Shown here piece by piece: positions 3,107 to 50,434 of a stretch of 64,000 bases of DNA (position 1 is the stretch's first letter; every line of letters begins with the position of its first letter). The notes below the pieces were generated by a model. It made no database searches. It was not told where the DNA came from and worked only from the letters and a program-made list of their open reading frames with translations. The position numbers were made by a program, and so were the translations under genes. The DNA is from Squalus acanthias (taxonomy: Eukaryota): NCBI GenBank assembly GCA_030390025.1, contig CM059431.1:143222001-143286000 (forward strand), in the 5' to 3' direction.

Positions 3107-4528
3107 TCATTTTCTAACTAATCTCAGAATGAGTGCCCAAGGGGGATTTCACCACCTTCTTCAGCTCTTCTCTGAATTTCCTCTGGGTCGCCACATAAAT
3201 ACATGGGTTTTGAAAGCAACTCAAAAACTTCAATATTGTTCCGGTTTCAGTGGCGATATATCCAGGGTCTGTGCGGTCACCTCGGTAATAAGTGGGTTTG
3301 TCAGTCTGGTAGTTACAAAACTCACGGCAGTTGTCAGCCACAGCAATATAAAACTGCCCGATACAGTGAACAGTAAAATGATGGATTTCCTTCGGTTCTC
3401 CATCTCTGGATCGCTCTGATTTTCACTTCTGTGACCCCGGAGTCCCCTGCAGGCTCTGCTGGCCACTAAAATACGTCTGACTGTCAAATAATTAAACAAG
3501 GCGATTAAAGTAAAAGGAAGCCAAACTAACCAGGCGCTGTAAAACCAGATGTAGGCTGCACCTGGAGGTGAGGAAACAAAAGTCACACTGTTCCGGCAGC
3601 CCCATTGCACCTTGTTAATTATTTGTTCAGCTTCAAATGCAAACAATACGGGGATGTCCTTTAAAAAGATTAGGACTGAGAACGCTGTTATAATCGCGGC
3701 CGCAGTTTTCTCGGTGCAATACTTTGCTTTAAACTTCTGGCAGCAGATAACTACAAATCGATCAAATGTGAAGGAGACGGTGAACCAAACAGACAAATCG
3801 AGGGTGACAACAGTCATGTATAGAACGAACTTACACATGTGAGTGTGATACAGGAAGTAAAGTGGAAAGTGATAATTGAAAATATGATACACGATTACAT
3901 TGATGATCAAGACCAGTAGATCTGCTGTTGCCATGGCCACCATGTAGACAGAGATACACTTGGAAAGACCGCAGTTTCCCCGGGAAAGAATTACCATTGC
4001 CACCAAGTTCGCTGTAAGAAAGAGAGAGCAGAGAAATAATGTTCAAGTGTCTGATTGAAATATATATGGAGATCCCTCTGGAGAGCATTTTACTCCATTC
4101 AGTGTGATTATCAACACGGAGCAGTGTGAGAACAGGATTAGTATTGGAGCCATTACCTGGGAAACCCACCCACACATTTTAATGAGCTGCTGCAGCGCTC
4201 ACTCTGCACGGGGGGACAAGACGATCCGGAAATCCGCTAAAATCCTTGTGTTGTAGCTTCAAAGATTATTGTATCATCAGTGAGTTTATCGGAAGAAGGG
4301 GAATGCGGTAAGTGAGGACACGCGGTTTACGATTTGGTTCCACGCACTACCGACTGTGCAATGCTGCCATCTAGAAAACCAGTTACCTTATCAAACAGGC
4401 TGTATGTACATGGATACAGTTAACCCCGATTAACAACAAACAGGTTAAAATGGCTCACCAGGGACAGCGACGACCACGAGAATCGGGTAGTAAATCTCTT
4501 TGATCAGCAGAATAGTTGATTGCCCCAT
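3107..4528 (-). pseudogene. GPR139/GPR142-like class A GPCR, gene 1, frameshifted. Exon 1 4528..4459, exon 2 4011..3107
   Basis: Exon 1 encodes MGQSTILLIKEIYYPILVVVAVP plus G, then a GTGAG donor; the acceptor is TTACAG at 4012. 7TM motifs are ATADLL, TFDRFV, FILLW and NPCIY. Relative to gene 3 there is a 1-nt deletion near 3294 (premature stop at 3230) and a 1-nt insertion near 3140. The C-terminal part lies in ORF 3114..3341. Confidence 0.88.
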
Positions 4529-4605
4529 TCTCTGTGAGAATGGATGAATTCTGTCGGAACAAAATGACTCTGACTGGCGCACGGCTGGGGCAATGGAAGG
4601 GAACC

Positions 4606-4685
4606 TATATTTATCCACACATCAAACCTCCAGGGAGTCCATCAGGTTAAATCATAATTAGCATTAGTTACAGTCATTTAACAAA
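4606..4685 (-). promoter_or_regulatory. Putative proximal promoter of gene 1
   Basis: GATAAATATA lies about 80 bp upstream of the ATG. On the + strand: CTCCAGGGA at 4628-4636, TAATTA at 4655-4660 and GCATTAGTTACAGTCATTTAACAAA at 4661-4685. The layout is positionally conserved in the paralogs. Confidence 0.65.
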
Positions 4686-4970
4686 TAGACTCAGGTAAGT
4701 TGTTTTTTTATCTGATACGTCAGATTAAGAGAAATCTGTGAAATTGTTGTTGGATAGTTTTACAAAATACAGCTTTTGAACATTGTTTACGAGTAGGAAG
4801 TGCAATCTCCCAGTCCTGGTGCTGACCCTATTCCTACAGGCCTGGTGAATGCAGCTCCCCAGGCAACAATTGTCATGACCCTGCCCTTGATTCACTCCTA
4901 GTGCACCAACTCCTCCAGAACAGGCAGTGAATCAAATCCTGCAATACTGGTGAAGAGCCCAGTCTGGCAG

Positions 4971-6990
4971 CATTAGAGGTGACAGGGCTCCTCCAGTACT
5001 AGTTGTACCCTACATTTAGATTAGAGGGACAGTTCTCCTCCTGTAATACTGGCAACATAAACTTAGGCTACATGTGTCCGAACTCCTGAGGTACAAGTAC
5101 CGTGTACACTGATGTTGAACGTGCTGATATGGTAATAGTGGTAGCACAACACTAACACTACTATTGACAGTGCTACTCCTCCGATGCTAGTGGAATACCC
5201 CTCATACACTAGATGTGCGTGTGCTCCTCGTGTACAGTAGTATCTCTGCACTTACATTAGATGTGACCGTGCCCCTCCTGTCCCAGTGCTACCACTCCAC
5301 TGACACTAGATGTGACCGTGCCCCTCCTGTCCCATGGTTACCCCTCCACTGACACTAGATGTGACCGTGTCCCTCCTGTTCCAGTGTTACCCCTACACTG
5401 ACACTAGATGTGACCGTGTCCCTCCTGTCCGAGTGTTAACCCTACACTGACACTAGATGTGACCGTGTCCCTCCTGTCCCAGTGTTACCTCTACACTGAC
5501 ACTAGATGTGATCGTGCCCCTCCTTTCCGAGTGCTATCCCTACACTGACACTAGATGTGACCGTGCCCCTCCTGTCCCAGTGCTACCCCTAAACTGACAC
5601 CTGATGAGACCCCTCCTGTCCCAGTGTTACCCCTACACTTACACTAGATGTGACCGTGTCCATCCTGTCCCAGTGTTACCCCTACACTTACACTAGATGT
5701 GACGGTGCCTCTCCTGTCCCGGTGTTACCCCTACAATTACACTACATTTGACGGTGCCTCTCCTGTCCCAGTGTTACCCCTACACTTACACTAGATGTGA
5801 CCGTGTCCCTCCTGTCCCAGTGTTACCCCTACATTTACACTAGAGGTGACCGGCCTCCTTCTGTACTAGTGGTGCCCCTACAATTGCACTAGAGATGACC
5901 GGGCTCCTCCTGTACTAGTGGTGTCACTATACTTACACTAGAGGTGACCTGGCTCCTCTTATACTAGTGGTACCTCTACCCAAATTCTAGCTTTGATCGT
6001 GCTCCTCCTGTACTAGTGGTACCCCTACACTTACACTCAAGGTGACTGTGCTCCTCCTGTACTAGTGGTGCCCGTAAACTTACATTAGTTGTGACCGGGC
6101 TCCTCCGGTACTAGTGGTTCCTTCCACTTACACTAGAGGTGACCGGGCTCCTCCTGTACTAGTGGGACCATCCACTTACACTAGAGGTGACCGGGCTCCT
6201 CCGGTAATAGTGATTCCTTACACTTGCACTAGAAATTACCGGGCTCCTCCTGTACTAGTGGTACCCCTACATTTATACTAGAGGTTACCGGGCTCCTCCT
6301 GTACTCGTGGTACCCCTACACGTACACGAGTGGTGACCTGGCCCCTCCTGTACTAATGGTACCCCTACACTTACACTAGAGATGACCGGGCTCCTCCTGT
6401 ACTAGTGGTACAACTATACTTACACTAGAGGTGACTCAGCTCCTCTTATACTAGTGGTACCTTTACCCTAACACTAGCATTGCCCGGGCTCCTTCTGTAC
6501 TAGTGGTGCCCCTACACTTACACTAGCGTTGACCATGCTCCTCCTGTACTAGTGGTGCCCCTACACTTACACTCGAGGTGACCGTGCTCGTCCCGTACTA
6601 GTGGTGCCCCTACACTAACACTAGAGGTGACCGGGCTCCTCCTACATGAGTGGTACCCCTACAATAACACTACTGTTGACCGTGCTCCTCCTACACTAGT
6701 GGTACCCCTAAAATTAATCTAGAGGTAACCGTGCTCCTCCGGTACTTGTAGCACCGTCACGGTTAAGCAAGGTGTCAGCAAGTTACTCTTGTATTAGTGG
6801 TACCCCTACAATTACATTAGAGATAATAGTGCTCCTCCGGTACTAGTCGTACTCCTACATTTACACTAGTTTTGACCGTGCTCCTTCCGTACCTGTGGTA
6901 CCCTACACATACACTAGAAGTGTACCTGCTCTTCCGGTACGACTGTTACCCTTACACTTACACTAGTGGTTAACGAGCTACCATACACAT
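4971..6990 (+). repeat. Minisatellite of about 49 bp (ACACTAGAGGTGACCGGGCTCCTCCTGTACTAGTGGTACCCCTACACTT) upstream of gene 1, first part
   Basis: Tandem units are directly visible. The array resumes briefly at 7760-7810 and again at 10355-11740. Confidence 0.95.
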
Positions 6991-7757: not shown

Positions 7758-7809
7758 ATACACTAATGATCATCCTGAATCTACAGTACTCGTGGTAGCC
7801 TTACACTTA

Positions 7810-10355: not shown

Positions 10356-11740
10356 TACACTAAATTTGAGTGTTCGCCTCCGTTACTAGTTGTACTCGAC
10401 ACTTACACTAGATGTGACGAGCTCCTCCGTTACTAGTTGTACTCGACACTTACACTAGATGTGACGAGCTCCTCCTGTACTAGTGGCACCTACACTTACA
10501 CTAGATGTGACGAGCTCCTCCTTTACTAGTGGCACCTACACTTACACTAGATGTGTGCGAGCTCCTCCTGTACTATTGGCACCTACACTTACACTAGATG
10601 TGAGCATTCTCCTCCTGTACTATTGGCACCTACACTTACACTAGATGTGTGCGAGCTCCTCCTGTACTATTGGCACCTACACTTACACTAGATGTGAGCA
10701 TTCTCCTCCTGTACTATTGGCACCTACACTTACACTAGATGTGTGCGAGCTCCTCCTGTACTATTGGCACCTACACTTACACTAGATGTGAGCATTCTCC
10801 TCCTGTACTATTGGCACCTACACTTACACTAGATGTGTGCGAGCTCCTCCTGTACTATTGGCACCTACACTTACACTAGATGTGAGCATTCTCCTCCTGT
10901 ACTATTGGCACCTACACTTACACTAGATGTGTGCGAGCTCCTCCTGTACTATTGGCACCTACACTTACACTAGATGTGAGCATTCTCCTCCTGTACTATT
11001 GGCACCTACACTTACACTAGATGTGAGCATTCTCCTCCTGTACTAGTGGCACCTACACTTGCACTAGATGTGAGCGTTCTCATCCTGTACTAGTTGCACC
11101 TACACTTACACTAGATGTGAGCATTCTACTCCTGTACTAAAGGCATCTACACTTACGCTAGATGTGAGCGCGCTCCTCCTGTACTAGTGGCACCTACACT
11201 TACACTAGATGTGAGCACGCTCCTCCTGTACTAGTGGCATCTACACTTACACTAGATGTGAGCGTTTTCCTCCTGTACTAGTGGCACCTACGCTTACACT
11301 GGATGTGAGCACGCTCTTCCTGTACTAGTGGCACTTACACTTACACTAGATGTGAGCGTTCTCCTCCTGTACTAGTGGCACATACACTTGCACTAGATGT
11401 GAGCGCGCTCCTCCAGTACTAGTGGTACCCTACACATCGACTAGTGGTGACCGGGCTCCTCTGGTACTGGTGGTACATGTCAATTACACTAGATGAGAGC
11501 GTTCACCTCCTGTACTAGTGGCACCTACACTTACACTAGATTTGAGCATTCTCCTCCTGCACTAGTGGCACCTACACTTACATGAGAAGTGACCGTGCTA
11601 CTCCGGTATTAATCGCACCAGTACCTTTGCACTAGAGGTGACCGCAATCCTGCGGTACTAGTGCAACCACTGCACTTCCTCCAGATATGACTGCGCTCCT
11701 CCGGTACTGGTGATACACGACACTTACACAAGAGGTGATC
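10355..11740 (+). repeat. 46-47-bp variant of the receptor-associated minisatellite
   Basis: Units are CTGTACTATTGGCACCTACACTTACACTAGATGTG(TGCGAG/AGCATT)CTCCTC. Confidence 0.95.
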
Positions 11741-12344
11741 CATGCGGAATGTGTGTTGTAAATGTCTGGCACTGATTTTCCGACGGTGCAAAATTTCCAG
11801 CACCCACTCTGCCCGCTGGATGACAATGGCATTTTAAAACTATTGGAATTTCCTCCTTATCGTCCGTATTCCGACTCACAAACCCCCACCAAAGCGATGC
11901 TGCTTGTTGCTCGGTGGCGGTTGTCAGGAGCGATTCCTATTGGATCCACTTTATTAGGATTGTGTACTTGGGGAAACTTTCTTTCTGAAGTGTCCATGTT
12001 TGTGGCCTTTTACTATCTCCAGCTCGTGAACGGTTTCTCCATCACGCTGAGGGGATATTTTGGACCTTCCCCTTTACCTGTTTCTATGGAGAGCAGGAAG
12101 AGGGAAATGATGAGGAGCAGCAGGGCAAGCAGGAAGCTGGAGACTCGCTTCAGGAAGAAGTCGCCCAGGAGAGCCCAGTGCCCGCTGTCAGATATCTGTG
12201 ACCGCAGGTCAGAGGGGGCACCGGAACAGAACTAAGATCAGAGACATCTGAAAAATAAAGCAGTCACACTATCATGGAGCTCTCTTCCACAACTACCGAG
12301 CCTCCCGTCGGAAAACATTCTGATTCAATTTTTACAAACAATTA

Positions 12345-19970: not shown

Positions 19971-20340
19971 ATTGTTTCTACATTAACGGAAACTGTATAT
20001 AATTATTAAACTGGAGCGTCTCATTGCAGTACCTGCGGTGTGAGGTAGTTATCGCTGACGCCCACATGTTCCACTCCACTGCTAAAGCTCAGTCATGACT
20101 GTTCTCTTTGGATCTTGAGCGGGAAGCGCGCTGTTTTAGCTGAATCGATTCTGTTCACCGGGGAAAGCGATAGACATCAAACACACGGCACAAAGTGGAA
20201 GAAATGTTCTCTGATACCTGTTTGTTTTAACAACAACAACCCATTTCCTTCTTAAAGGACAGACGGCTATTCTGAAATGGAACACCTGCTGTAATTTAAT
20301 TCTAGTTAGAACATGATGCTTCAGATAACTTTTTTATTTT

Positions 20341-22047
20341 TTAACCAAAAAATGTGCAAGGCCATTTCACCACATTCTTCAGCTCTTCCCTGAATTTACT
20401 TTGGGTAGCTGCATAAATACATGTGTTTGTACAGGAACTCAAATACATGAGCATATATCCGGTTTCAGTGGCAATATAGGCAGGAGCTGCATAATCACCT
20501 CGATATTGCGCGGTGTTTGTCAGTCTGGTAGTTAAAAAACTAACGATAGCTGTTAGCCACAACAATATAAAACTGCCCGATACACTGAACAGTAAAATAA
20601 TGGATTTCCTCCGGTTCTCCATCTCTGGGTCGCTCTGATTCTCACTGCTGTGACCCCGGAGTCCCCTGCGGGCTCTACTGGCCACTAAAATGCGTCTGAC
20701 TGTCAAACAATTAAATAGTAAGATCAAAGCAAAAGCAAGCCAAGCAATGAAAATACTTTCCAACCAGGAGTATGCTGCACCTGCAGGCGATGAAAAAAAC
20801 TCCACTCTGGCGCGGCAACCCCAGTGAACATTGTTAATTATTCTCTCAGGTTCATATGCAAACCAAAAAGGGAGGCTCTGTAAACAGATCAGGAGAGAGA
20901 CCGTTGTTATAATCGCGGCCGCAGTTCTCACTGTGCAATACTTTGTTTTAAACTTCTCACAACATATAGCTACAAATCGGTCAAATGTGAACGAGACTGT
21001 AAACCACACCGACACATACAGGGTGACACATTGCATGTACATAATGATCTTACAGACGGCAGTGTAGGACAGGAAGGAATGTGGAAAGTGATGACTGATA
21101 ATGCGGTTCACTGATATATTGATGATCATTACCAGTAGATCTGCTGTTGCCATGGCCACCATGTAGACAGAGATACATTTGGAAAGGCCGCAGTTTCCTC
21201 TGGAGAGAATCAGGATTGTCAGTAGGTTCGCTGTGAGAAAGAGGTGGAAGAGGTCAGTAACGGAGACACTCGGATAAATCTCACAGCTTATTGTGGGGAA
21301 ATGTGCGGATCTGTCCTTATTCAGCGTTATGCTCACGGATCTTTTATCATTAATATAAGCGAGGGTAAAGACACTTTATTTAAAGAAATGAAATCATTGA
21401 GAATACAATATCGAGGGACTGAAAATCCGCCGTCCTTCCAGCAAACTTCAGTCAAATACTAAATATAATTTCACGGCATTTCATTGAAAGATATAATTCA
21501 AATAAAACATTCAGCTGAGAGAAAACAGTTCAATTTAATTCGAAACGCTTCCGAGAGGAGGGGAGCAGCTCCCCGAGCAACAATTATTTCTAAAATTACC
21601 TTCCAAAGTCCAGTGTTGGGTGGAGGTGGCTGAAGTGCCAGGAATGATCAACTTAAAATAGACAGAGCACAAAGGTACGAATCAGATGATTACTATGGAC
21701 AATGAGCAACACCGTCTGAGTGATCTATGTACTGTAGGAGGGCCGGGGAATCCGCCTCGCCCTCCCTCCGTATAGGGATGACAGTTGAGCGCCCGGTGCC
21801 CACGATCTTGCGACCAGAACAGCGCCTCAGCGGCCGCGCGGACTGCCAGAATTCCCGCTGATATTCACCGACTGATCCCGGTGGATCAATGATTCTGCAA
21901 TGAGGACATTCTCGGATTCTGTTACATTAACACTGAGATAGTCAACAACTATTCGACAACAGGATACATTGACTTACCGGGAACACCGAAGGCTGCGAGC
22001 ATATGGTAGTAAATGTCCCTTATCTGTAGAATTGTTGGCCGTATCAT
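20341..22047 (-). CDS. GPR139/GPR142-like class A GPCR, gene 2, intact, 319 aa. Exon 1 22047..21978, exon 2 21230..20341
   Basis: Exon 1 encodes MIRPTILQIRDIYYHMLAAFGVP plus G, then GTAAGT; the acceptor is TTCTCACAG. 70+890=960 nt in frame. Motifs are ANLLTIL, ATADLL, TFDRFV, FILLW and NTCIY. Confidence 0.92.
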
Positions 22048-22125
22048 TATTTTGAATAATGTGTGAATTCTGTCCCGCTTTACGGTTCGGACTGGAGTTT
22101 ATCTGAGATCCGTAAATGCTCCCAA

Positions 22126-22200
22126 TTTATACAAAAATCGTTGCCCCGTGAGAAAATCAGGTGACACAATAAGTGGCGTTAGTTACAGTCACTTAACAAA
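22126..22200 (-). promoter_or_regulatory. Putative proximal promoter of gene 2
   Basis: TATAAA on - at 22126-22131. On +: CCCCGTGAGA at 22144-22153, ATCAGGT, and GCGTTAGTTACAGTCACTTAACAAA at 22176-22200 (23/25 identical to gene 1). Confidence 0.65.
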
Positions 22201-22449
22201 CAAGGAGCGATTTTCCACTTCAGTGCGCCCGGGCCACCACTGGCGAAATTGTAAAGCTCAGTCCATGAAACTCATTCCATTAAAATCATTGAGCGGAAAG
22301 TAATCCCAGAGGGAATGTTTTCTGTGCATGCCCCCTGAACGCTGAAGGGAACATCCCTCCCGGACACCGCGTTAGTTCTTGTGACCTCATTTTAATTCTC
22401 TGAAAACATCAGTCATCCATTGCATAAATTAAATTTGTTATGTACTGTA

Positions 22450-25151
22450 ATGATTACTAGTGGTGACTCAGCTCGAACATGGCTAGTGATGATCCTACTT
22501 TAACACGAACAATAATGACCATATTCTAACATTCATGGTGGTGATGTTATTCTAACATTACTGGTGGTGAATGTACTCCAACATTAGCAGTGGGGACTCT
22601 ACTATAACATTACCGGTGGTGACATTAATCCAGCATTAGAAATTCTGACCACACTCGAACATTACTGGTGATGCCCTACACTAACATTACTGAAGGTGAT
22701 CCCACTTTAACGTTACTGATGGTAGCTATAGACTAACATTAATTGTGTTGGCCCTATCGTAACATTACTGGCGGTAATCCTATTCAAATATTATTGGTGA
22801 TGACCCTACACTAACATAACTGGTGGTGATACTACTCTGAATTTACTGGCGGTGATCCTATTCAAACATTACTGGTGGTGACCCTACTCTAACATTAATG
22901 CTGATGACCTTACTCTATCATTAATGATGGTGGCCCTACTGTATCCTTACTGGTGCTGATTCTACTCTAACATTACTGGTGGTAACCCTAGTCAAATATT
23001 ACAGGTGGATGACCCTACTCTATCATTACAGGTGGGTGAACCTACTCTAACATTACTGGTGAAGACCCAACTCTAACATTACTGGTGGTGACTCTACTCT
23101 ATCATTACTGGTGGTGAACCTATACTATCATAACTGGGGGTGACACTGCTGTAACATTTCTGGTGTAGACCATACTCTAACATTACTGTGGTGAATCTAC
23201 TTTAACATTACTGGCGATGATTCTATTCTAACATTTCTGGTGTTGATGTTAATTTAACATCAATAGTCGTGACCCGCACTAACATTAGTGATGGTGAATC
23301 TATTCTAATTTTACTGCTGCTGCCACTACTAAAACGTTAATGGCAGCAATCGTACTGTTATATTACTTGTGTTTATTCTGCTCTAAGACTGATGGTGACC
23401 CGAATCTAACATTAGTGGTGGTGACATTACTCCAATATTATTGGTGGTGCATCTGCTCTAACATTGCATGTGGTCTCCATATTCTGACGTTAATGATGAG
23501 TACTGTACTCTAACATTACTGCTGGTCATCGCACTGTAAAATTAATAGTGTTAATCCTATTCTAACATAGTGGTGATAATAATCTAACAATTTGGCGGCG
23601 ACCCACTCTAACTTTACTGATGGTAACTATACGCTAACATTAATGGTGTTAGCCCTATCCTATCATTACTGGCGGTAATCCTATTCAAATATTATTGGTG
23701 TTGACCCTACACTAACATTAAGGTGGGGATAGTACACTAATATTAATGGCGGTGATCCTATTCTTTGATTACTGGTGGTGACCATACTCTAACATTAATG
23801 GTGATGACCTGACTCTAACATTACTGATGGTGGCCCTACTCTATCATTACTGGTGGTGAGTCGATCCTAACATTCTGGTGATGACCCTACTCTAACATTA
23901 CTGGTGGTGACCTTACCCTAACATTACTGGTGGTGACTCGACACTACCATTACTGATGCTGACCCTACACTAATATTACTGGTGGTGACCCTACCCTAAC
24001 ATTACTGGTGGTGACTCGACACTAACATTATTGTGTTGACCCTACACTAAAATTGCAGCTGGTGACCCTAATCTAACATTACTAGTTGTGACCCTACAGT
24101 AACATTTCTGGTGATGACTCTACTATATCATTACTGGTGGTCATCCTACTCTAACATTACTGCTCGCGAGCCTACTCTATCATTACTTTTGGTTACCCTA
24201 CTCTAACCTTACTGGTGGTGACCCTACTCTTTCATTACTGGTTGTGAACCCACACTATCATTACTGGTGGTGACCCTACTGTAACCTTACTGTCGGTGAC
24301 CCTGCGCTTACATTACTGCTGATGACCCGACTCTATCATTAATGGTGGTGTCTCTACTCTAAAATTATTGGCAGTGATTATATTCTAATATTACTGGTGA
24401 TGACCCTACTCTATCATTACTGGTGGTGACCCTACTTTATCATTACTGGTGGTGACCCTACTCTAACATTACTGCTGATGACCCTACTTTATCGTTACTG
24501 GTGGTGACCCTACGCTAACATTTCTGGTGTTGACCCTACTCTAAATTTACTGGTGAGGACCCGACTCTAACATTACTGTTGATGACCCTGCTCGAATATA
24601 ACCTGTGATGACCCTACTCTATCATTACTGGTGGTGACCCTACTCTATCATTACTGGTGTTGACCCTACTCTATCTTTACTGGTGTTGACCCTACTCTCA
24701 CAGTACTAGTGATGACCCTACTCTATCATTACTGGTGTTGACCCTACTCTATCATTACTGGTGGTGAGCCTACACTATCATTAATGGCGGTGACCCAATA
24801 TAACATTACTTGTGCCTCCCCGACTCTAACATTACTGGTGTTCATGTTAATTTAACATCAATAGTCGTGACCCCGCACTAATATTAGTGATGGTGACACA
24901 ATTCTAATTTTACTGCTGCTGCCACTACTAAAACGTTACTGGTGGAAACCCTACTGTAATATTACTTGTGTTTATTCTACTCTAAGACTGATGGTGACCC
25001 GGATCTAACATTAGTGGGTTGTCCTTACTCCAATATTATTGGTGGAGCATCTGCTCTAAATTTACATGTGGTCTCCATACTCTGACGTTACTGATGAGTA
25101 CTGTACTCTAACATTACTGCTGGTGATCGCACTCTAAAATGAATAGAGTTA
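22450..25151 (+). repeat. 26-bp minisatellite (AACATTACTGGTGGTGACCCTACTCT) upstream of gene 2
   Basis: About 100 degenerate tandem units are visible, with an internal long-range duplication. Confidence 0.95.
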
Positions 25152-25495: not shown

Positions 25496-28175
25496 AGGGC
25501 TCAAGTCGTCGTTGTTAAAAATTCTCTGAAGCAACACAAGAAACGTCTTTGCATCGATTACTCGCAAACTATTAACCAGTATACCGACCTGGATGCCTAC
25601 CCACTACCACGCAACGATGACATGGTCAATAACCTTGCTAACTACAAGGTATTTTCAACTTTTGACTTAAAGAGCGCATACCATCAAGTACCGGTAAAGG
25701 AATCTGATGAAAGGTATACGGCTTTTGAGGCCAATGGTCTGCTTTACCAGTTTCGTCGCCTTCCATTCGGGGTCACCAATGGGGTGGCCGTCTTTCAACG
25801 GGCAATGGATAGCCTAGTCAAACAGGAGAACTTAACAGACAGCTTTTCCATATCTTGGTAATATCACCATTGCTGCTCATGATCAGAAGGAGCATGATGC
25901 CAACCTCCAGAAATTTCTTGACGTTCTCCGTCGTCGCATCTTAACCTTAAATGAGTTCAAATCTGTGAAATCAGTACCATCAGTCAACATCCTTGGCTAC
26001 TGGGTGGGCAATGGTGTCATCAAACCGGATCCGGAGTGACTTCATCCGCTTCAGGAGCTCCCTCCTCCTACGAATCTCAGCTCTCTTCGTCGGGCCCTCG
26101 ACATGTTCGCCTATTATGCGAAGTGGATACCTCACTTTCCTGACAACATCCAGCCCCTGCTTCATACAAAGTCATTTCCGTTGGAGGCGAGGGCTAGTTT
26201 AGCTTTCGACCTCCTCAAGCAACAACTGGAAAAAGCCGCTCTTCATTCCATCGATGAAAATTTCCCTTTTGTGGTCGAGTGCAATGCATCGGAGGTGGCG
26301 ATCTCTGCTACCTTGAATCAAGGCGGTCGACCCGTTGCCTTTCTGTCTAGAACTTTGCAGGGTAGCGACCTGCATTACCCTCCTGTCGAGAAGGAGGCTA
26401 TGGCTATCATTGAGGCACTATGTAAGTGGAGTTATTTTCTCGCCCGTCGCCATGTCACGCTCATAACCGATCAGTGCTCGGTGGCCTTTATGCTGGATAA
26501 CCGGAAATGCACTAAAATAAAGAATAACAAAATACAGCTCTGGAGGATGGAATTGGCCGCTTTTGACTACACCATACAATATCGACCCGGCAAGGAGAAT
26601 GTGGCCGTGGATACACTCATGCTTGCATTCTGCTCTTCCATATCAACTTCGACTCTTGCGGGTCTTCATACTGCCTTATGCCATCCTGGCGTTACCCATA
26701 TGTTGCACTTTGTGCGATCTAAAAATCTCACATTTTCTACGGAAGACATGAAAAGAACATGCTCCACTTGTAGAATTTGATCGGAATTAAAACCGCAATT
26801 CTTCCGTCCGTCGGATGGCTCACTCATACACGCTACACAGCCTATGCAGCGACCCTGCATTGACTTTAAAGGGCCATTGCCTTCCTCCACGCGAAACACC
26901 CACTTGCTTACTATGGTGGATGAATATTCACGCTTTCCCTTTGCTTTCCCCTGTCCCAATATGCTTACTTCCACAGTGATCAAATGCCTCGATCAGGCCT
27001 TTTCCCTTTGCGGTATGGCCAATTTCATCCACTCTGATCGGGGTCCCTCCTTCATGTCAAGTGAATTCAAAAGTTATCTTTCCCAACGGGGAATCACCAC
27101 AAGTAAATGGACACCGTATCATCCTATTGGAAACGGACAGGTTGAGAGATACAATGTGATCATTTGGAACACTGTTCGTCTTGCACTGAGATCACCCAAT
27201 CTACCAGACCAGCAGTGGGAAACTATGCTCCCTGACGCGTTGCATTCCATCAGGTCTCTTCTTTCTGCATCCACCAATGTTACTCCTCACGAACGATTCT
27301 TCGGGTTCCAGCGTCGCTCCACTCATGGGACGTCCTTACCATCATAGTTGGCAGCTCCTGGCTCCGTGCTGCTCCGAAGATTCGTCCGATCCTCCAAGAG
27401 TGATCCCCTCGTCGACCATGTGGAACTAATGGATGTCAATCCTACATACGCGTACGTGCGGTACCCTGATGGCTGGGAGTCCACAGTTTCACTTCGGGAT
27501 CTGGCTCCCTGCCCAACCGGTCCCACGGACCCAATCGATAGAGAGATCCGTATTAACGACGCCGATACTCCGCGCTCCTCCGAGGATGACGCCCTACCCG
27601 GCACATAAAGGGATCTACCAGCTACTTTGCTGGATCAACCCGGGGAACAGAGCGCTCCCCGCCGGATGGCCACACGAAGCCAGGACGCCGGTCAATCACC
27701 GGCTACTGAGCAGGATGAAGCCAGCTCTGCACCTGTGGTGGCTCGCACCCGGAGCCAAGGTCTCCCCAGTCCCCCTCAGGTCGATCCAGGCGACACGAGC
27801 TCTGTCAGCCCGCCGGTACGAACCAAGTGACCCAGCGACCAAAACACAGTCCGAGGAGACGTGCCTTCCGGCCTCCAACGGAAATCCAAAGGACTGCATC
27901 TAATCTTAGTCCAGCTAATTCGGTAGAAGGAAGCCGCTGGACTTCCAATCTTTCAGGCGGGAAGAATGACATCAATCTTGTATGAAGTAATACTGGGTGG
28001 CCTGCTGGTGGCGCTGTCCAGGGAGAGTATAAATACTAGTGCATGAGCCCAACTTGCTTAGGGTATGCCTCAACTGGAACTAGTAAAGGACAGAACTAGA
28101 TCTCCATGTTGAAAACCAGTTGATTAAAGCTTTGTTTAACACTTAGACCAAGTGCCTAGTAGTTTTCTTACATCA
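25496..28175 (+). mobile_element. 5'-truncated, decayed Ty3/Gypsy LTR retrotransposon (RT, RNase H, integrase, 3' LTR)
   Basis: RT: RLCIDY...DAYPLP, FDLKSAYHQ, LPFGVTN. RNase H: VVECNAS, EKEAMAII. Integrase: IDFKGPLP, HSDRGPSF, GNGQVERYN. Polypurine tract AGGCGGGAAGAA at 27955-27966. Several stops and frameshifts. Confidence 0.92.
27967..28175 (+). repeat. 3' LTR of the Gypsy element (about 209 bp)
   Basis: Starts with TG right after the PPT, ends ...TTACATCA, and contains TATAAATA and ATTAAA. Confidence 0.7.
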
Positions 28176-29481: not shown

Positions 29482-30342
29482 GTTAGCAATGAGAGAATCT
29501 CCCAGAATTCACAATTTAAACCCAGACAAAATCTATTCACATTATTCGCTACAACAAAGAGCACAGCCAAGACAATGAGATGTGTCCCAGGGGGTCCAGC
29601 GTGTCAAACCACCTGCTGGCTGCATATCCTGTCAATTTGTGTTCTTGTGTTTTTAAAAAAAAAACAAAAACAAAAACAAAAAAAAAAAAAACACCTGGGA
29701 AGACCGGCCATGATGTCAAGTCACGTTCTGTATCGTGACATGAACCCGATATCGCGATTGAGGCCATCCTCATGAGTGCGGAACTTGGCTATCAGTTTCT
29801 GCTCTATGATTTTGCGCTGTCGTGTATCTCGAAGGCCGCCTTGGAGAACGCTTACCCGCAGATCCGAGGCTGAATGCCCCTGGCTGCTGAAGTGTTCCCC
29901 GACTGGGAGGCAACCCTCCTGCCTGGCGATTGTTGCGCGGTGTCCGTTCATACGTTGTCTCAGTGTCTGCATGGTCTCGCCGATGTACCATGCTCTGGAG
30001 CATCCTTTACTGCAACGTATCAGGTAGACAACGTTGGCCGAGTCACATGAGTATGTACCGTGTACCTGGTGGGTAGTGTCCTCACGTGTAATGATGGTAT
30101 CTGTGTCCATGATTTGGCATGTCTTGCAGAGGTTGCCGTGGCAGGGTTGTGTGGTGTCTTGGTTGCTGTTCTCCTGAAAGATGGGTAATCTGCTGCGAAC
30201 GATGGTACTTTTGAGGTTAGGCGGCTGCTTGAAGGCGAGTAGTGGAGGCGTGGGGATGGCCTTAGCAAGGTGTTCGTCGTCATCGATGACATGTTGAAGG
30301 CTGCGAAGAACATGGCGTAGTTTTTCCGCTCCGGGGAAGTCC

Positions 30343-31894: not shown

Positions 31895-33195
31895 TTGAAG
31901 GAGCACAGTCACTAATAGTGTAAATGTAGGAGTATCACTAGTATCGGAGGAGCACTGTTATTTCCAGTGTAATTATAGGGGTACCACTAATGCAAGAGCA
32001 TCATGGTCACACCTAGTTTAAGTGTAGCGGTACTACTTGTACCGGAGGAGCACGGTCACCGCTAGTGTTAGTGTAGGTTAGCACTAGTGTAGAATGAGCA
32101 TTGTCAACACTAGTGTTAGTGTAGGTTACCACCAGTTTAGGAGGAGCACGGTTTACATTAGTGTAAGTGTAAGTTACCACTAGTGTAGGTAGAACACGGT
32201 CAACACTAGTGTTAGTGTAGTGATTCCACGAGCACCTGAGGAGGACGGTGACTGTAAGTGTAAGTGTAGGCATGCCACTAGTGAATGCTCCTCTGTAGTA
32301 TAAGTGTATGTACAACAAGTACCAGAGGAGCAAGGTCACATAAAGTGCCAGCACATCTTTTTGAGCAGCACGTGTACGTGTCGGGGACCACAAGTACGGG
32401 AGGAGCACGGTTAAATCTGGTCTTAGTGTAGGGGTATCACTAGTACCGAAGGAGCACAGTCAAACTTAATGTAAATATAGGGATACCACTAGTACAGGAG
32501 GAGCACAGTCACATCTAGTGTAAGTGTAGGGTTTCCACTGGTACTGGAGGAAAATTTTCACCACTGGTGTAATTTTACTGATACCACTATTACCAGAGGA
32601 GCTTGCACAAATCTAGTGTAAGTGTAGGGGTAGCACTGGGACAGGATGGGCACGATCACATCTAGTGTAAGTGTAGGGGTAGCACTGGGACAGGAGGAAC
32701 ACGATCACATCTAGTGTAAGTGTAGGGGTAAAACTGGGCCATGTGGGGCACGGTCACATCTAGTGTCAGTGTAGGGGTAACACTGGGACAGGAAGGGCAC
32801 GGTCACATCTAGTGTAAGTGTAGGGATAACACTGGGACAGGAGGGGCACGGTCACATCTAGTGTATGTGTAGTGGTAACACTGGGACAGGAGGGACACGG
32901 TCACATCTAGTCTCAGTGTAGGGGTAACACTGGGACAGGAAGGGCACGGTCACATCTAGTGTCAGTGTAGGGATAACACTGGGACAGGAGGAGCACATGC
33001 TCATATAGTGTATGAGGGGGGTTTCCACTAGTACCGGAGGAGCTCTGCCAATAGTAGTGCTAGTGTAGTGCTACCACTATTACCATAGCAGCACGTTCAA
33101 CTCCAGTGTAGGCATGTTACTAGTGCCTGATGAGTACGGACACATCTAGCGTAAGTGTACAGTGCCAGTAGCCCAGGAGGAGAACTGTCACCTCG
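31895..33195 (-). repeat. Receptor-associated minisatellite of about 49 bp upstream of gene 3 (reverse orientation)
   Basis: CACGGTCACATCTAGTGTAAGTGTAGGGGTAACACTGGGACAGGAGGGG units are the reverse complement of the gene 1 array. Confidence 0.93.
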
Positions 33196-33475
33196 AATGC
33201 TGCCGGACTGGGTTCATCACCAATATCGCACGATGTGATTCTGGAGGAGTTGGTGCACTAGGAATGAATCAAGGGAAGGGTCATGACAATTATTGCCTGG
33301 GAAGCTGCCTTCAACAGGCCTGTAGGAATAGGGTCAGAAATAGTCCTTGGAGAATGCACTTCATACACGTAGACAATGTTTTAAATCTGCATTTTTTTTG
33401 TAATTGTCCAACAACAATTTCACATATTTCTCTTAAACTGACGTATCAGATAAAAAAACAACTTACCTGAGTCTA

Positions 33476-33555: not shown

Positions 33556-33632
33556 GGTTCCCTTCCATTGCCCCAGCCGTGCGCCAGTCAGAGTCTTTCA
33601 ATTCCTACAGAATTCATCCATTCTCACAGAAA

Positions 33633-34992
33633 ATGGGGCGAACAATTATTCTGCTGAGCACAGAGTTTTACTACCCGATTCTCGCGGCCGTCGGTGTCCC
33701 CGGTGAGCCATGGTAGCCTGTTTTTTGTTAATCGGTGTTAATTGTATTCATGTACATACAGCCTGTTTGATAAGATAACGAGTTTTCCAGATTTCAGCAG
33801 TATACAAATCCGATAACCTCACTGATGTTGCAATGTTCTTTGAAGCTCCAACACAAGGATTTCAGCAGATTTCCGGACCGTCTTGTCTCCCCGTGAAAAG
33901 TGAGCGCTGCAGTAGCTCATTAAAATGTGTGGGTCGTTTTTTCACGCAATGGTTCCAAAGCTAATCCTGTTCTCACACTGCTCCCTATTGATAATCACAC
34001 TGAATGGATTAAATTGCTCACCACAGGATCTCCATATATATTTCAATCAGACACTGGGATATTATTTCTCTCCTCTCTTTTTTACAGCGAATTTGGTGAC
34101 AATTGTGATTCTCTCCCGAGGAAACTGCGGCCTTTCCAAGTGTATCTCTGTCTACATGGTGGCCATGGCAACAGCAGATCTACTGGTCATGACAGTCAAT
34201 GTAATAGTGTGTCATATTTTCAATTATCGCTTTCCACTTTCATTCCTATCCCAGACTCCCGTGTGTAAGTTCATTCTATACATGACTGCTATCAACCTCG
34301 ATTTGTCTGTTTGGTTCACCGTCTCCTTCACATTTGACCGATTTGTAGTTATCTGCTGCCAGAAGTTTAAAGCAAAGTACTGCACCGAGAGAACTGCATC
34401 CGCGGTTATCACAGCGTTCACGGTCCTGATCCTTTTAAGGGGTATCCACATTTTGTTTGCATTTGAACCACAGCAAATAATTAACAAGGTGCAGTGGGGC
34501 TGCCGGAACAGTGTGACTTTTGTTTCCTCACCTCCAGGTGTTGCCTACATCTGGTTTCACAGCGCCTGGAGCGTTTGGCTTCCTTTTACTTTAATTGCCT
34601 TGTTAAATTATTTGACAGTCAGACGTATTTTAGTGGCCAGCAGAGCCCGCAGAGGACTCCGGGGTCACAGGAGTGAAAATCAGAGCGATACCGAGATGGA
34701 GAACCGAAGGAAATCCATCATTTTACTTTTTACTATATCCGGCAGTTTTATATTGCTGTGGCTGACAACTGCCGTGAGTTTTGTAACTACCAGACTGAAA
34801 AACACCACCTATTACCGAGGTGACCGCACAGACCCTGGATATATCGCCACTGAAACCGGAACAATGTTGAAGTTTTTGAGTTGCTTTCAAAACCCGTGTA
34901 TTTATGTAGCGACCCAGAGGAAATTCAGAGAAGAGCTGAAGAAGTTGGCAAAATCCCCCTGGGCACTAATTCTGAAATTAGTTAGAAAATGA
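33633..34992 (+). CDS. GPR139/GPR142-like class A GPCR, gene 3, intact, 324 aa. Exon 1 33633..33702, exon 2 34088..34992
   Basis: Exon 1 encodes MGRTIILLSTEFYYPILAAVGVP plus G, then GTGAG; the acceptor is TTTACAG. 70+905=975 nt in frame. Motifs are TFDRFV, FILLW and NPCIY. Confidence 0.92.
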
Positions 34993-45068: not shown

Positions 45069-46476
45069 CTAGTTCAGCTTTCTTTCATGTTTAACCAATC
45101 TTAGAATCAGTGTCGAGGGAGATTTCATCAGCTTCTTCAGCTCTTCTCTGAACTTCCTCTGGGTCGCTGCATAAATACACGGGTTTATACAGGAACTCAA
45201 AAGCTTCAGCATGGCTCCGGTTTCAGTGGCGATATAAGCTGGGTTTGTGCGGTCGCCTCGGTAATAATTGATGTTTGTCATTCTGGTAATTAACAAATTC
45301 ACGGCAGTTGTCAACCAAAGCAATATAAAACTGCCCGATATAGCGAAGAGCAAAATGATGGATTTCCTTCGGTTCTCCAGCTCTGGATCGCTCTGATTCT
45401 CACTCTTGTGACCCCGGAGTCCCCTGCGGGTTCTGATAGCCATTAAAATACGTCTGACGGTCAAATAATTAAACAAAGCCATTAAGGTAAAGGGAAGCCA
45501 AACGAGCCATATGATGTGAAACCAGAGATACGCTTCACCTGGAGGTGCGGAAAAAAAAGCTACACTTGACCGACAGCCCCACTGCACCTTGTTAATTATT
45601 TGCTCAAATTCATATGCAAAAAAAGCGACAATGCCCTTTAAAAAACTCAAAATAGAGAACGATGTTATAACCGCGGCCGCAGTTCTCTCGGTGCAATACT
45701 TTACTTTAAACTTCTGGCAGCAGATAACTACACATCGGTCAAATGTGAAGGAGACGGTGAACCAAACAGACAAATCGAAGGTGACAGCATTCATGTATAG
45801 ATTTAACTTACACACGGGAGTCTGGGACATGAAGGAAAGTGGAAAGTGATAATTTAAAATATAATACGCCATTACATTAATGATCATGACCAGTAGATCT
45901 GCTGTTGCCATGGCCACCATATAGACAGAGATACACTTGGAAAGGCCGCAGTTTCCTCGGCAGAGAATCACGATTGTCACCAAGTTCGCTGTAAGAAAGA
46001 GAGAGGAGAGAAATAATGTTCCAGTGTCTGATAGAAATACATATGTAGATACCTGTTGAGGGCATTTTACTCCATTCAGTGTGATTATCAACGGGAGCAG
46101 TGTAAGAAAATGATTAGTATTGGAGCCATTACCTGGGAAACCCACCCACACATTTTAATGAGCTGCTCAAACGCTCACTCTGCACGTGTTGACAAGACTG
46201 TCCGTAAATCCATAAATACCTTGTGTCGGAGCTTCAAAGAGCATTGAACATCAGTAAGGTTATCAGATTAAAGGAAAAGCGCGGAGTGTGAAACGCGGTT
46301 CATTGTGCAATGCTGACATCCGTAAAACAGTTACCTTATGCAACAGACTGCAAGAACACAGAAATAGTTAACACCGATTAACAACAAACAGATTGCAATG
46401 ACTTACCGGGGACACCGACAGCTGCGAGAATCGGGTACTAAATCTCTTTGACCAGCAGTATAGCTGGTCGCCCCAT
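45069..46476 (-). pseudogene. GPR139/GPR142-like class A GPCR, gene 4, with a nonsense codon in exon 1. Exon 1 46476..46407, exon 2 45988..45069
   Basis: Exon 1 reads MGRPAILLVKEI*YPILAAVGVP; the TAG at 46438-46440 replaces the TAC of the paralogs. Donor GTAAGT, acceptor TTACAG. Exon 2 is fully open, with DRC instead of DRF. Confidence 0.88.
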
Positions 46477-46633: not shown

Positions 46634-46919
46634 TAACGTGAGGTAAGTTGTTTCTCTTGTCTGATATGTCAGATTAAGAGAAATATGAGAAATTGTTATT
46701 GGACAGTTTCAAAAAAACACACAATTCAATCATTCTTTACGAATGGAAACTGGAATCACCCAATACTGGTGCTGACCCTATTCCAGCAGGACTGGTGGAA
46801 GCAGCTACACTGGCAGCAATCGCTAGAACCCTGCCCTTCACTGACTCATAGCTCTCCAACCCCTCCAGAACCGGAGCTGAAATAAATCCTGCAATATTGG
46901 TGATGACACCCGTCCTGCA

Positions 46920-47265
46920 GCGTTAGAGGTGACCGTGCTCCTCCACTGTTAGTGATCAGCTACACTTACACTAGAGGTAATCGTGATCCTCTGGTACTAG
47001 TGTTACCGGCACATTTACACTAGAGTTGACCACACTCCTACAGTACTGGTGATACCTAACACTTACGTTTGAGATGATCATGCTCCTCCAGTACTTGCGG
47101 TAGCCTACACTGACACGAGTGGTGACCGTGCTCCTCCAGTACTCAGGGTATCCTACACTAACACTAGTGGTGACCGTACTCCTCCAGTAGTCAGGGTACT
47201 CTACACTAAACTAGCGGTGACCGTGCTCCTCCAGTACTCGGTGTTCCCTACACTAACACTAGAGT
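46920..47265 (+). repeat. Receptor-associated minisatellite of about 49 bp upstream of gene 4 (resumes at 50020-50390)
   Basis: AGAGGTGACCGTGCTCCTCCAGTACT...CCTACACTAACACTAG units. Confidence 0.9.
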
Positions 47266-50020
47266 TACATAAGAACATAAGAACATAAGAAATAATAGCA
47301 GGAATAGGCCACTTGGCCTCTCAAGCCTTTTCCGCCATTCAATAAGATCATGGCTGATCCTGGGCTCAAAGCTACTTCCCTGCCCGCTCCCCATAACCAT
47401 TCACTCCCGTATTTGTACAAATCTGTCTATCTCCACCTTAAATGTATTTAATGACCCAGCCTCCACGGCTCTCTGGGGCAGAGAATGCCACAATCTGCGT
47501 TAATAATTCTGAGAGAAGAAATTCCTTCTCATCTCAGTTTTAAAAGGGCGACCCTTTATTCTGAAACTTTGCCCCCGAGTTCTAGAATTCCCCACGAGGG
47601 GAAACATCCTCTCTGCATCTACCTTGTCGAGCCCCCTCAATATCTTATATATTGTAATAAGATCACCTCTCATTCTTCTTAATTCCAATGATTATAGGCC
47701 CAACCTGCTCAACCTTCTACTTAAGTCAACCCCCTCATCTGAGGAATCAAACGTGTGAATCGTCTCTCAACTGCCTCCAATGCAAATATATCCTTCCTTA
47801 AATAAGGAGACCAAAACTGTACGCAGTACTCAAGGTGTGGTCTCACCAATACCCTGTACAGCGATAGCAGGACTGCCCTGCTTTTATACTCCAACCCCCT
47901 TGAAATAAAGGCCAACATTCCATTTTTCTTTTTGATTACTTGTCGTCCCTCTGAACTGTACTATTTTGTAATCTCTCTCCATTTAAGTAATAGTTTGCTT
48001 TTTAATTTTTCCTGCCAAAGTGGATAAACTCGCACGTTCCCACATTATACTCCATCTGCAAAATGTTTGCCCACTTACTTAGCCTATCTATATCCCTTTG
48101 CAGATTCTTTGAGCCCTCCTCAGAACTTGTTTTGCCACCCATCTTTGTATCATCCGCCAACTTGGCTACATTACACCCAGTCCCTTCATCCAAGTCATTA
48201 ATGTAGATTGTAAATAGTTGATGCCAAATCACCGATCACTGTGGCGCTCCAGTAGTTACAGTTTGCCAACCGGAAAATGACCCATTTATACCGAATCTCT
48301 GGTTTCTGTTAGTTAGCGAATTATCTATCTATGCCAAAATATTACCCCCAATTCCGTGAGCTCTTATCTGATGCAGTAACCTTTTATATGGCACCTTCTC
48401 AAATGCCTTCTGGAAATCCAAATACACCACATCCAGTGGCTCACCTTTGTCCACCCTGCTCATTACAACCTCAAAGAAATCCAGCAAATTTGTTAAACTT
48501 GATTTCCCTTTCATAAAACCATGCTGACTCTGCTTGACTGCATTATGATTTTCCAAATGCCCTGCTCGTGCTTCCCTAATGAATGACTCCAGCATTTTCC
48601 CATCGACAGATGATAGGCTAACTTATCTATTGTTTCCTGCTTTCTGTCTCCCTCTTTTCTTAAATAGGGGTGTTACATTTGAGGTTTTCCAATCCGCTGG
48701 GACCTCTCCAGAGTCCAGGGAATTTTGATATATTGCAGACAATGCATCCACTATCTCTGCAGCCACTTATTTTAAGACCCTGGGGTGCAGGCCATCTGTT
48801 ACAGGGGACTTAACGTCTTTTAGTCGCATTACTTTAACAAGTACTATTTACTTAATGCGAGTGAGTGTCTTTAGTTACCCCGTACCTGTCGACCCTTGAT
48901 TATCCATTATTGGGATGTTGTTAGTGTCCTCTACCGTGAAGACAGATACAAAATATTGGTTCAGAGTCTCTGCCATTTCCCCATTCCCCATTATTAATTC
49001 CCCAACCTCATCCTCTAAGGGACCAACGTTTACTTTAGCTAGTTCTTCCTTTTTATATACATGTAGAAACTCTTACTATCTGTTTTAATATTTCTTGCCA
49101 GTTTACTCTCATAATTCATCTTCTCTCTCTTTATTTTTTTTAGTCATCCTTTGCTGTTTTTTAAAAATGTCCCAATCCGCTGGTCTCCCACCAATCTTGG
49201 CAACATTGTATGCCTTAGTTTGCAATTTGATACCATCCTTTACTTCCTTAGTTAGCCACGGCTGGTGCTCCCTTCTCTTAACATCTTTCTTTCTCACTGG
49301 AATTTATTTTTGTTGAGAGTTATGAAATATATCCTTAAATATACGACACTGCATTTGAACTGTCTTGCCAATTTATTTATTTTTTCAAGTCAATTTTAGC
49401 CAGTTCTGCCGTCATGCCATTGTAATTGCCTTTGTTTAAGATCAGGACACTCGTTTGAGATACATCTTTCTCACCCTCCAACTGAATTTGAAATTCAAAC
49501 ATGCTATGATCACTCTTTCCTAGAGGATCCTTTACTATGAGGTCATTTATTAATTATGTCTCTTTAAACAGTACCAGATCCAAGATAGCCTGCTCCCTGG
49601 TTGATTCCATTACATATTGTTCTAGGAAACCATCCCGGATGCTCTCTATGAACTCCTCCTCCAGGCTACCATGGCTTTTTTGATTTGTCCAATCAATATG
49701 GAGATTGAAATCACCCATTATTATTACCGTACCTTTTTAACAGGCATCCTTTATTTGCTAATTTACACTCTGTCCAACAGCATGGCTACTGATCGTGATC
49801 CTGTAGACTACGCCCACCAGAGACTTTTTCCCCATATTATTTTTATCTCCACCCAAACCGATTCTACATCTTGATGTTCTGAGCCAATATCACTTCTCAC
49901 CACTGTACTGATCCCATCCTTCACCAACAAAGCCACCCCACCTCCCTTTCCTTTCTGTCTATCCTTCCGAATTGTCAAATACCCTGGAATATTCAGTTCC
50001 CCGCACTGGTCACCTTGCCC
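47266..50020 (-). mobile_element. CR1 LINE, decayed, inserted in the minisatellite
   Basis: (TTCTTATG)n tail at 47267-47290. RT peptides QHGFMKGKS, YLDFQKAF and KLADDTK, plus endonuclease-side sequence toward 50000. Confidence 0.93.
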
Positions 50021-50434
50021 CTGCAGTACTATTTATAACCTACTCCTACAGTAGAGATGACCGTGCTCCTCTGGTGTTGGTGATAGACTGCATTACACGA
50101 GAGATGAGCGCGCTCCTGTGGAGCTCGAGGTTGGCTAAACATACAAAAGAGTGAAACATGCACCTTCACTACTAGTGGTACCTCAACACTTTCACAAGTG
50201 GTGCCAATGCTTAACTGGTACTGATGGTACCCTACACGTACATTAGAGGTGAACGTGCTACTCTGGTAGTATTGATATCCTATGCTTACAGTAGAACTGA
50301 CCGTGCCCCTCCGATATTTAGTGGTACCCTAAACATACACTAAACTTAACCTTCCTCCTCCGGTAATAGTTGTACCACGACACTTACATTGTTGCTCAAA
50401 GGCTCTGATTTTCATATTATGGAAAGGAAATAGT

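What the first reader, a model, noticed from the sequence alone, without database searches (positions are those of the whole stretch)
22450..25151. Each receptor gene carries a homologous minisatellite starting about 0.4 kb upstream, in the same relative orientation
Genes 1, 3 and 4 have a 47-49-bp unit array and gene 2 has a 26-bp unit array. The 49-mer looks like a diverged dimer, and its second half (TACTAGTGGT-ACCCCTACACTTAC) aligns with the 26-mer (TACTGGTGGTGACCCTACTCTAAC). All arrays begin 400-450 bp upstream of the ATG and flip with the gene. The array therefore predates the gene 2 versus gene 1/3/4 split and persisted while its unit length changed. It could be a regulatory or silencing element, or a recombination substrate that drives the expansion.
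Basis: partly seen in the sequence, partly recalled or inferred. Interest (0 to 1): 0.72.

Follow-up and report, generated by a model that had tools for sequence, protein, structure and literature searches.

The report
Ancient satellite before shark receptor promoters
Each of four neighbouring shark receptor genes has the same old repeat array just upstream of its promoter, most likely copied along with the gene and renewed in place, with no sign yet that it controls the gene.

Summary
Observation confirmed and extended. Four two-exon 'probable GPR139' receptor genes (two intact, two broken) each carry an oriented minisatellite starting 407-418 bp before the ATG. The 49-mer equals two 26-mers minus 3 bp (34/49 identical; score 47, best of 100 shuffles 38). 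Decayed 26-bp units survive from about -285 in genes 1 and 4, so the 26-mer is ancestral. The gene 2 versus 1/3/4 split predates the two main shark superorders. The link holds in other species: contigs bridge promoter and array in 2 of 4 runs, and Heptranchias gene models translate the 48-mer in gene-sense orientation. Best reading (0.55): a self-renewing passenger in the duplicated gene-promoter-array cassette. Consensus divergence matches synonymous divergence, decay follows G/C-to-A/T bias, and gene 1/3 arrays are collinear with no extra homogenisation. A duplication-driver role (0.22) or regulatory role (0.18) is open; genome-wide co-location and expression could not be tested. The scan noted this cassette before, 7.6 Mb away in the same genome (e1-7939187). 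New here: the 26-to-48/49 switch, its direction and age, and cross-species linkage.

The parts
22454..25139 (+). Gene 2 array: 104 units of 26 bp, with internal block duplications (units 31-42 copied to 93-104, 92% identical; 11-16 to 46-51, 86%)
22372..22397 (+). Isolated decayed 26-mer unit at -325 from the gene 2 ATG
   Evidence: 8.9 bits, the highest score outside the defined arrays
22175..22201 (-). Conserved promoter block shared by all four genes (88% gene 1 vs gene 2; 96-100% among genes 1/3/4)
22125..22131 (-). TATA-like element about 80 bp before the ATG, same place in all four genes; function inferred
   Evidence: alignment; sequence
21978..22047 (-). Gene 2 coding exon 1 (70 nt, phase-1 intron follows)
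20341..21230 (-). Gene 2 exon 2, intact class A GPCR (7tm_1); 85% identical to a sawshark 'probable GPR139'
3107..4528 (-). Gene 1 (exon 1 4459-4528, exon 2 from 4011); frameshift near 3296, probable pseudogene or sequencing error
4813..4943 (+). Gene 1 proximal relic units in 26-bp register (-285 to -415)
4944..6985 (+). Gene 1 main array, about 42 units of 48-49 bp in distinct variant patches
7786..7809 (+). Array relic between mobile-element insertions
   Evidence: nhmmer E 0.0075
10383..11745 (+). Distal 47-bp block, recently amplified (mean pairwise identity 0.91, alternating two-unit repeat); no promoter or exon beside it, probably the detached far end of the gene 1 array
31900..33346 (-). 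Gene 3 array (about 28 units of 48-49 bp plus proximal relics to -287); far end abuts a LINE fragment
33633..34992 (+). Gene 3 (exon 1 33633-33702, exon 2 from 34088), intact
45069..46476 (-). Gene 4 (exon 1 46407-46476 with an in-frame stop at codon 13; exon 2 from 45988), probable pseudogene
46763..47266 (+). Gene 4 array, proximal part: 26-bp-register relics from -287, then 48-49-bp units
47267..50005 (-). LINE (CR1-like; family name recalled) inserted inside one array unit of gene 4
50020..50390 (+). Gene 4 array, distal part resuming after the LINE

Best explanation
The array is a self-renewing passenger inside the duplicated unit. Step 1 (inferred): a 26-bp tandem array lay directly upstream of the promoter of an ancestral receptor gene. 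Step 2 (shown for genes 1/3/4): the family multiplied as whole cassettes of gene, promoter and array, so position and orientation are inherited. Step 3 (shown): each array keeps turning over by slippage or unequal exchange, which rebuilds it while the unique DNA beside it loses alignability. Step 4 (unit relation shown, order inferred from relics): in the ancestor of the gene 1/3/4 clade a two-unit block lost 3 bp and was amplified into the 48/49-mer; the unrenewed proximal edge kept the old 26-bp register. LINEs later split or capped the arrays. The promoter proper is the separate conserved block near -150 and the TATA-like site near -80.
For: Gene 1/3 homology runs from 2.5 kb past the stop codon through gene and promoter (86-89%) into arrays that match unit by unit at both ends (gene 3 units 3-7 to gene 1 units 3, 5-8; units 29-30 to 41-42). 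The shared variant patch is 0.86 identical within each gene and 0.86 between them, equal to the flank, so it needs no homogenisation after duplication. Consensus identity between the unit classes (34/49, 69%) equals fourfold-site identity between gene 2 and genes 1/3/4 (0.67-0.72; dS 0.42-0.52). In 86 non-duplicated gene 2 units, C and G positions have changed in 21-24% of cells and A and T in 12%, as expected of neutral decay. Internal block copies and the young 47-mer patch show ongoing turnover. Both broken genes keep their arrays, and LINEs abut or split all four.
Against: Introns and the -170 to -400 zone do not align between gene 2 and genes 1/3/4 (35-46%), yet the array starts at nearly the same distance in 4 of 4 genes and is linked in other species. 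Pure drift should lose some arrays over that time (theory recalled). Fourfold sites may understate neutral divergence. Change per position is uneven within base classes (chi-square p 0.001 and 0.0003), though units are not independent. Four genes cannot show how often arrays are lost.
Confidence: 0.55

Rival explanations
1. Duplication driver. The arrays supply multi-register homology for non-allelic recombination, so cassettes that carry one duplicate or convert more often and come to dominate the family without any benefit to the animal.
For: Arrays visibly recombine internally. Gene 1/3 homology ends at the far end of the gene 3 array, inside the span of the longer gene 1 array. The middle parts of the gene 1 and gene 3 arrays have no unit-to-unit match. 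It would explain retention in every copy. Precedent: trypanosome 70-bp repeats provide recombination homology upstream of VSG genes (PMC4858185, abstract).
Against: The gene 3 far end is a LINE junction, so the breakpoint is hidden. Genes 1 and 3 are inverted, and both array ends are collinear, so no hybrid array is seen. The only unusual run of shared sites among genes 1/3/4 (10 sites, p 0.0004, uncorrected for three tests) is a 30-bp intron patch, not at the array.
Confidence: 0.22
2. Regulatory or chromatin element. A protein binds the repeat and sets a shared chromatin state next to each promoter, for example default silencing with one-receptor choice, or a homotypic enhancer.
For: Fixed position directly beyond a conserved promoter, fixed orientation, deep age, and linkage in other species. 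The -285 relic stays close to the 26-mer consensus in genes 1 and 4 (18 and 22 bits) while its neighbours score -26 to -2.
Against: Unit length, copy number and sequence vary freely. No motif is held: the two C positions of the shared TGACC pentamer are among the most changed (26 of 86 each). The 26-mer consensus has no CpG; array CpG o/e is 0.37-0.56 against 0.59 for the window; no G4 motifs. Folding is no better than shuffles (z 1.06 and 0.61). The -285 relic is no better kept between genes 1 and 3 (0.85) than the flank.
Confidence: 0.18
3. The satellite is a dispersed genome-wide family that lies beside these genes only because the region is rich in it.
For: Genome-wide distribution could not be tested (no assembly held). 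The 47-bp block lies 5.9-7.2 kb from gene 1 with no promoter beside it.
Against: Within 64 kb every block lies upstream of a gene and flips with it; a 49-mer profile finds 163 of 167 hits in the arrays, one in the relic at 7786 and three at E 0.75 or worse. Promoter-to-array contigs exist in other organisms. Among proteins of 222-707 aa only the receptor model P0069 carried the satellite peptide.
Confidence: 0.05

Closest known systems
Beta-satellite blocks in the human 19p12 KRAB zinc-finger cluster (Eichler et al. 1998, Genome Res 8:791; only the title was seen, in reference lists of PMC8125562 and PMC2443715; text not held; content recalled; lead from e1-7939187)
   Same: A satellite block travels with each member of a tandemly expanded gene family and is discussed as passenger or driver of the expansion.
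   Different: Unrelated sequence (beta satellite has a 68-bp monomer). Here the array abuts the promoter, is shared across shark orders, and changed unit length in one gene clade.
70-bp repeats upstream of Trypanosoma brucei VSG genes (PMC4858185, abstract and outline seen)
   Same: Repeat lies near the genes of a large surface-protein archive; direction and length were examined in that study.
   Different: There a recombination role in switching is proven and genes move into a dedicated expression site. Here every gene has its own promoter and no switching or conversion at the array is shown.
GPR139/GPR142 class A receptors (PMC12208981, passages seen)
   Same: Automatic annotations call most relatives 'probable GPR139'; GPR139 is among the top solved-structure matches over the full length (E 3e-8).
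   Different: The match is remote and PrRP receptor scores slightly better. The top 120 hits are all shark and ray paralogues, so this is a separate expanded family, not the conserved single-copy gene.
Higher-order repeat formation in satellite DNA (monomer to diverged dimer, old monomers at array edges; recalled)
   Same: 49-mer from two 26-mers, relic monomers at the edge, and a newer two-unit alternation in the 47-mer block.
   Different: Happens in 1-3-kb arrays tied to gene promoters rather than in centromeric blocks.

Membership tests
Satellite co-duplicated with a gene cassette (19p12 type) | Same satellite at the same place and orientation at each paralogue | tested here: met
   4 of 4 genes
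Satellite co-duplicated with a gene cassette (19p12 type) | Array lies inside the duplicated segment | tested here: met
   Gene 1/3 collinear units and continuous homology; gene 1/4 homology reaches the array edge
Satellite co-duplicated with a gene cassette (19p12 type) | Satellite largely confined to the gene family genome-wide | not testable with these tools
   No assembly held; true within the window
Beta satellite itself | 68-bp monomer | tested here: not met
   Units are 26 and 47-49 bp
Recombination-guide repeats (VSG 70-bp type) | Conversion or duplication boundaries map in the repeats | tested here: inconclusive
   Gene 1/3 boundary hidden by a LINE; no conversion tract ending at an array among three genes
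Recombination-guide repeats (VSG 70-bp type) | Single dedicated expression site receiving silent donors | tested here: not met
   All four genes carry their own promoter-like block
Regulatory tandem repeat | Constrained motif within the unit | tested here: inconclusive
   Decay follows base class; residual unevenness present but units are not independent
Regulatory tandem repeat | Effect on expression or chromatin | not testable with these tools
   No raw RNA or chromatin data could be laid
Class A GPCR (7tm_1) | PF00001 above the curated cut-off | tested here: met
   4 of 4 exon-2 products, 67-82 bits against 30.5
GPR139 orthologue | One-to-one orthology with vertebrate GPR139 | tested here: not met
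   Four paralogues here; only a remote match to human GPR139 (E 3e-8); no tree with true GPR139 was built

The most novel reading that the evidence does not exclude
The array is a working cis-element of a large, little-described shark receptor repertoire. It either holds each promoter in a shared chromatin state from which single receptors are chosen, or it is the homology block that drives the family's expansion. The 26-mer and 48/49-mer classes would then mark two subfamilies that are regulated, or recombine, separately.
Probability: 0.25. Interest if true: 0.85.

Novelty: new variant of a known kind. Interest (0 to 1): 0.5.

Why it matters
Even as a passenger, the array is a dated marker for the growth of a large shark and ray receptor family: unit class tracks gene clade, and variant patches record duplication order. 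It also explains false N-terminal repeats in public gene models. If arrays prove to be duplication breakpoints or chromatin switches, this would be a satellite-based mechanism for building or controlling a vertebrate receptor repertoire, kept across shark orders. My searches found no paper on the family's expansion or on the satellite, but the library lacks most subscription journals.

Tried and rejected
Whole-genome co-location: no assembly held. Metagenome scans with the receptor (75 pattern matches, none confirmed) and with a 31-base satellite pattern (0) found nothing. Expression: no RNA holder listed; this says nothing either way. Coding role for the array: rejected; unit lengths of 26, 47 and 49 break the frame, the longest stop-free frame on the gene-sense strand is 99 codons (148 on the opposite strand of gene 3), and the Heptranchias extension is best read as a prediction artefact because 2 of the 4 members of its cluster start at the normal ATG. 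Search for other proteins with the satellite peptide: 0 of 212 candidates among longer proteins; six weak hits among 1.84 billion representatives (E 2e-5 to 2e-4) are unrelated repetitive proteins by inspection; that search also missed the known positive, so it is insensitive. Summed contig depth gives 160-1,300 array bases per gene-equivalent by hand arithmetic, no excess over a 2.7-kb array, but the tool states this depth is no copy number, so it is not used as evidence. Rfam: no match in the window. Hairpin or G4 role: not above shuffles. Nuclear-receptor half-site idea (motif recalled): not supported by column conservation. The first profile used only 10 units and was replaced by the 104-unit profile. 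Earlier-finding look-ups by sequence, relatives and near place returned nothing. Papers checked without a mention of GPR139: PMC10620051 and bioRxiv 2025.06.08.657570 (term passages); their supplements were not read, and the preprint's table of tandem clusters might list this family.

Full report
Setting. The window holds four paralogous class A GPCR genes (7tm_1 in 4 of 4) among many LINE fragments. Each has a 70-nt first coding exon and a phase-1 intron; the ATGs are at 4528(-), 22047(-), 33633(+) and 46476(-). Gene 1 has a frameshift near 3296 and gene 4 a stop at codon 13. A protein search with gene 2 gave 2,077 hits among 3,337 candidates. The 120 listed are all from sharks and rays, mostly named 'probable G-protein coupled receptor 139', the closest at 85% from a sawshark. 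The match to human GPR139 is remote (E 3e-8). No whole genome is held.

The observation. Tandem Repeats Finder and a wrap-around decomposition give 104 units of 26 bp at 22454-25139 and 47-49-bp units at genes 1, 3 and 4. Continuous arrays start 407 (gene 2), 416, 411 and 418 bp before the ATG. A profile from the gene 2 units hits the other arrays only on the strand that follows the gene, with 4 hits of 5 bits or more in 110,416 outside positions. The reverse test, with a 49-mer profile, puts 163 of 167 hits in the arrays, 47 of them in gene 2's, and 2 of the 163 on the opposite strand. One 26-mer matches the gene 1 consensus at 20 of 25 bases (0 of 1000 shuffles). The figures are 7/1000 for gene 3, 16/1000 for gene 4 and 103/1000 for the distal 47-mer. 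Two 26-mers align to the 49-mer at 34 of 49 with a single 3-bp gap (47 against a null maximum of 38 in 100). The halves of the 49-mer are not significantly alike by themselves.

Direction of change. Between -285 and -470 of genes 1 and 4, decayed units stand in full 26-bp register: chain scores are -10 and -43 against -131 +/- 13, maximum -86, in 2,500 null chains. Gene 3 keeps three such units in register but its chain does not exceed the null maximum, and gene 2 has one stray unit at -325. I infer that the 26-mer is ancestral and the 48/49-mer a derived dimer, with the old form left at the edge that is not renewed.

Age and other species. A tree of 116 of the 120 hits (four with internally duplicated models left out) plus the four window proteins puts gene 2 in a 53-row group and genes 1/3/4 in a 61-row group, both SH-aLRT 99, quick search, midpoint root. 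Both groups hold squalomorph and galeomorph sharks (assignments recalled), so the split is older than those superorders; the five ray proteins fall in gene 2's group. Two independent lines show the link outside this genome. First, contigs of four public runs with four organism labels (three studies) were laid on 20300-22700. All four show the same 26-mer consensus in their loose ends. Of 32 listed records (8,706 more not shown), 4 bridge promoter and array with at least 31 letters on each side: records 13 and 16 in X11 and 23 and 24 in X14, at roughly 80-90% identity. None of the listed records in X1 or X9 meets that bar. Second, Heptranchias perlo models P0069 and P0128 begin with four 16-residue repeats. 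This peptide hits only the window's 48/49-mer arrays in its top 23 matches, always on the gene-sense strand (55 bits against a maximum of 29 in 200 shuffles). P0069 sits in the gene 1/3/4 group. It was 1 of 120 proteins with such an extension; the rest say nothing, as arrays are normally not translated.

How the arrays behave. Gene 1/3 homology spans 582-4920 at 86-89% and continues into the arrays, which match unit by unit at both ends but not in the middle. Their shared variant patch is 0.86 identical within and between genes, the same as the flank. So the patch was amplified before the duplication and has since decayed at the background rate. Turnover continues locally: gene 2 has block copies of 12 and 6 units, and the 47-mer block is 0.91 identical with a two-unit alternation. 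A LINE of about 2.7 kb interrupts one unit of gene 4's array, which resumes at 50020; insertions also separate gene 1's distal block and cap the arrays of genes 2 and 3.

Function. The consensus identity between unit classes (69%) equals fourfold-site identity between the gene classes (0.67-0.72), so it needs no selection. Changes in 86 non-duplicated units follow G/C-to-A/T bias. There are no G4 motifs, CpG is depleted, and folding is at shuffle level. Conservation between gene classes is concentrated in a 26-bp block at -156 to -131 (88%) and near a TATA-like site, not in the array. Against a pure passenger: the intron and the -170 to -400 zone no longer align between classes, yet the array persists at almost the same distance everywhere I could look, and change per position is uneven. 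For a driver role, the gene 1/3 homology ends in the array zone, but at a LINE junction, and the one odd run of shared sites lies in the intron. Expression and chromatin could not be examined.

Comparison and verdict. The arrangement works like satellite-bearing gene cassettes such as beta satellite in the 19p12 zinc-finger cluster (title seen only; content recalled) and resembles in layout the VSG 70-bp repeats (abstract), whose defining expression-site switching is absent here. Ten paper searches (listings seen) gave no description of this satellite or of the family's expansion. The scan itself noted the 26-bp cassette 7.6 Mb away (e1-7939187) and the family in another genome (e1-7813824); these are unchecked notes and are not counted as support. 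I rate it a real, old and previously unpublished-looking feature, a new variant of a known kind, most likely a self-renewing passenger (0.55), with driver (0.22) and regulator (0.18) open. Interest 0.5.

Noticed in passing
window 4692-4700 (+), and the matching sites in genes 3 and 4: A perfect splice-donor-like 9-mer on the antisense strand about 170 bp before the ATG of genes 1 and 3 (one change in gene 4), facing the array; absent from gene 2. Could mark a divergent antisense transcript.
   Followed up: no
window 4529-4545, 33616-33632, 46477-46493: An acceptor-like pyrimidine tract and AG end 3 nt before the ATG in genes 1/3/4; public models with upstream extensions may use it. A real 5' non-coding exon is not excluded.
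   Followed up: partly
P0069 and P0128, residues 1-78: Two Heptranchias RefSeq models translate the 48-bp satellite as an N-terminal repeat; probably a gene-prediction artefact.
   Followed up: yes
window 58208-58649: Unrelated young 40-bp minisatellite (11 copies, 95% matches) within a 1.1-kb stretch present in only one copy of a duplicated element (37163-40699 vs 55532-60519).
   Followed up: no
window 16214-16564: Unrelated, A/G-rich 48-bp array (7.4 copies); no hit to the 49-mer profile.
   Followed up: partly
window 25500-27900: Decayed LTR-retrotransposon-like pol (reverse transcriptase, RNase H and integrase-like frames; identification by eye) just beyond the gene 2 array and a LINE fragment.
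   Followed up: no
window 29837-30859: An identical 26-base stretch occurs in inverted orientation at both ends of about 1 kb, like terminal inverted repeats of a small DNA element.
   Followed up: no
gene 3 intron, near window 33945-33975: A patch of about 30 bp where gene 3 differs at 10 successive informative sites from genes 1 and 4; short conversion from another paralogue or a mutation cluster.
   Followed up: partly
gene 2 array unit: The 26-mer contains seven of the eight bases of the bacterial Chi site (motif recalled), as noted historically for minisatellite cores; no test made, low weight.
   Followed up: no
P0022, P0026, P0079, P0100: Several public models contain partial duplicate transmembrane segments, suggesting fragmentary tandem copies of exon 2 fused by annotation.
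   Followed up: no
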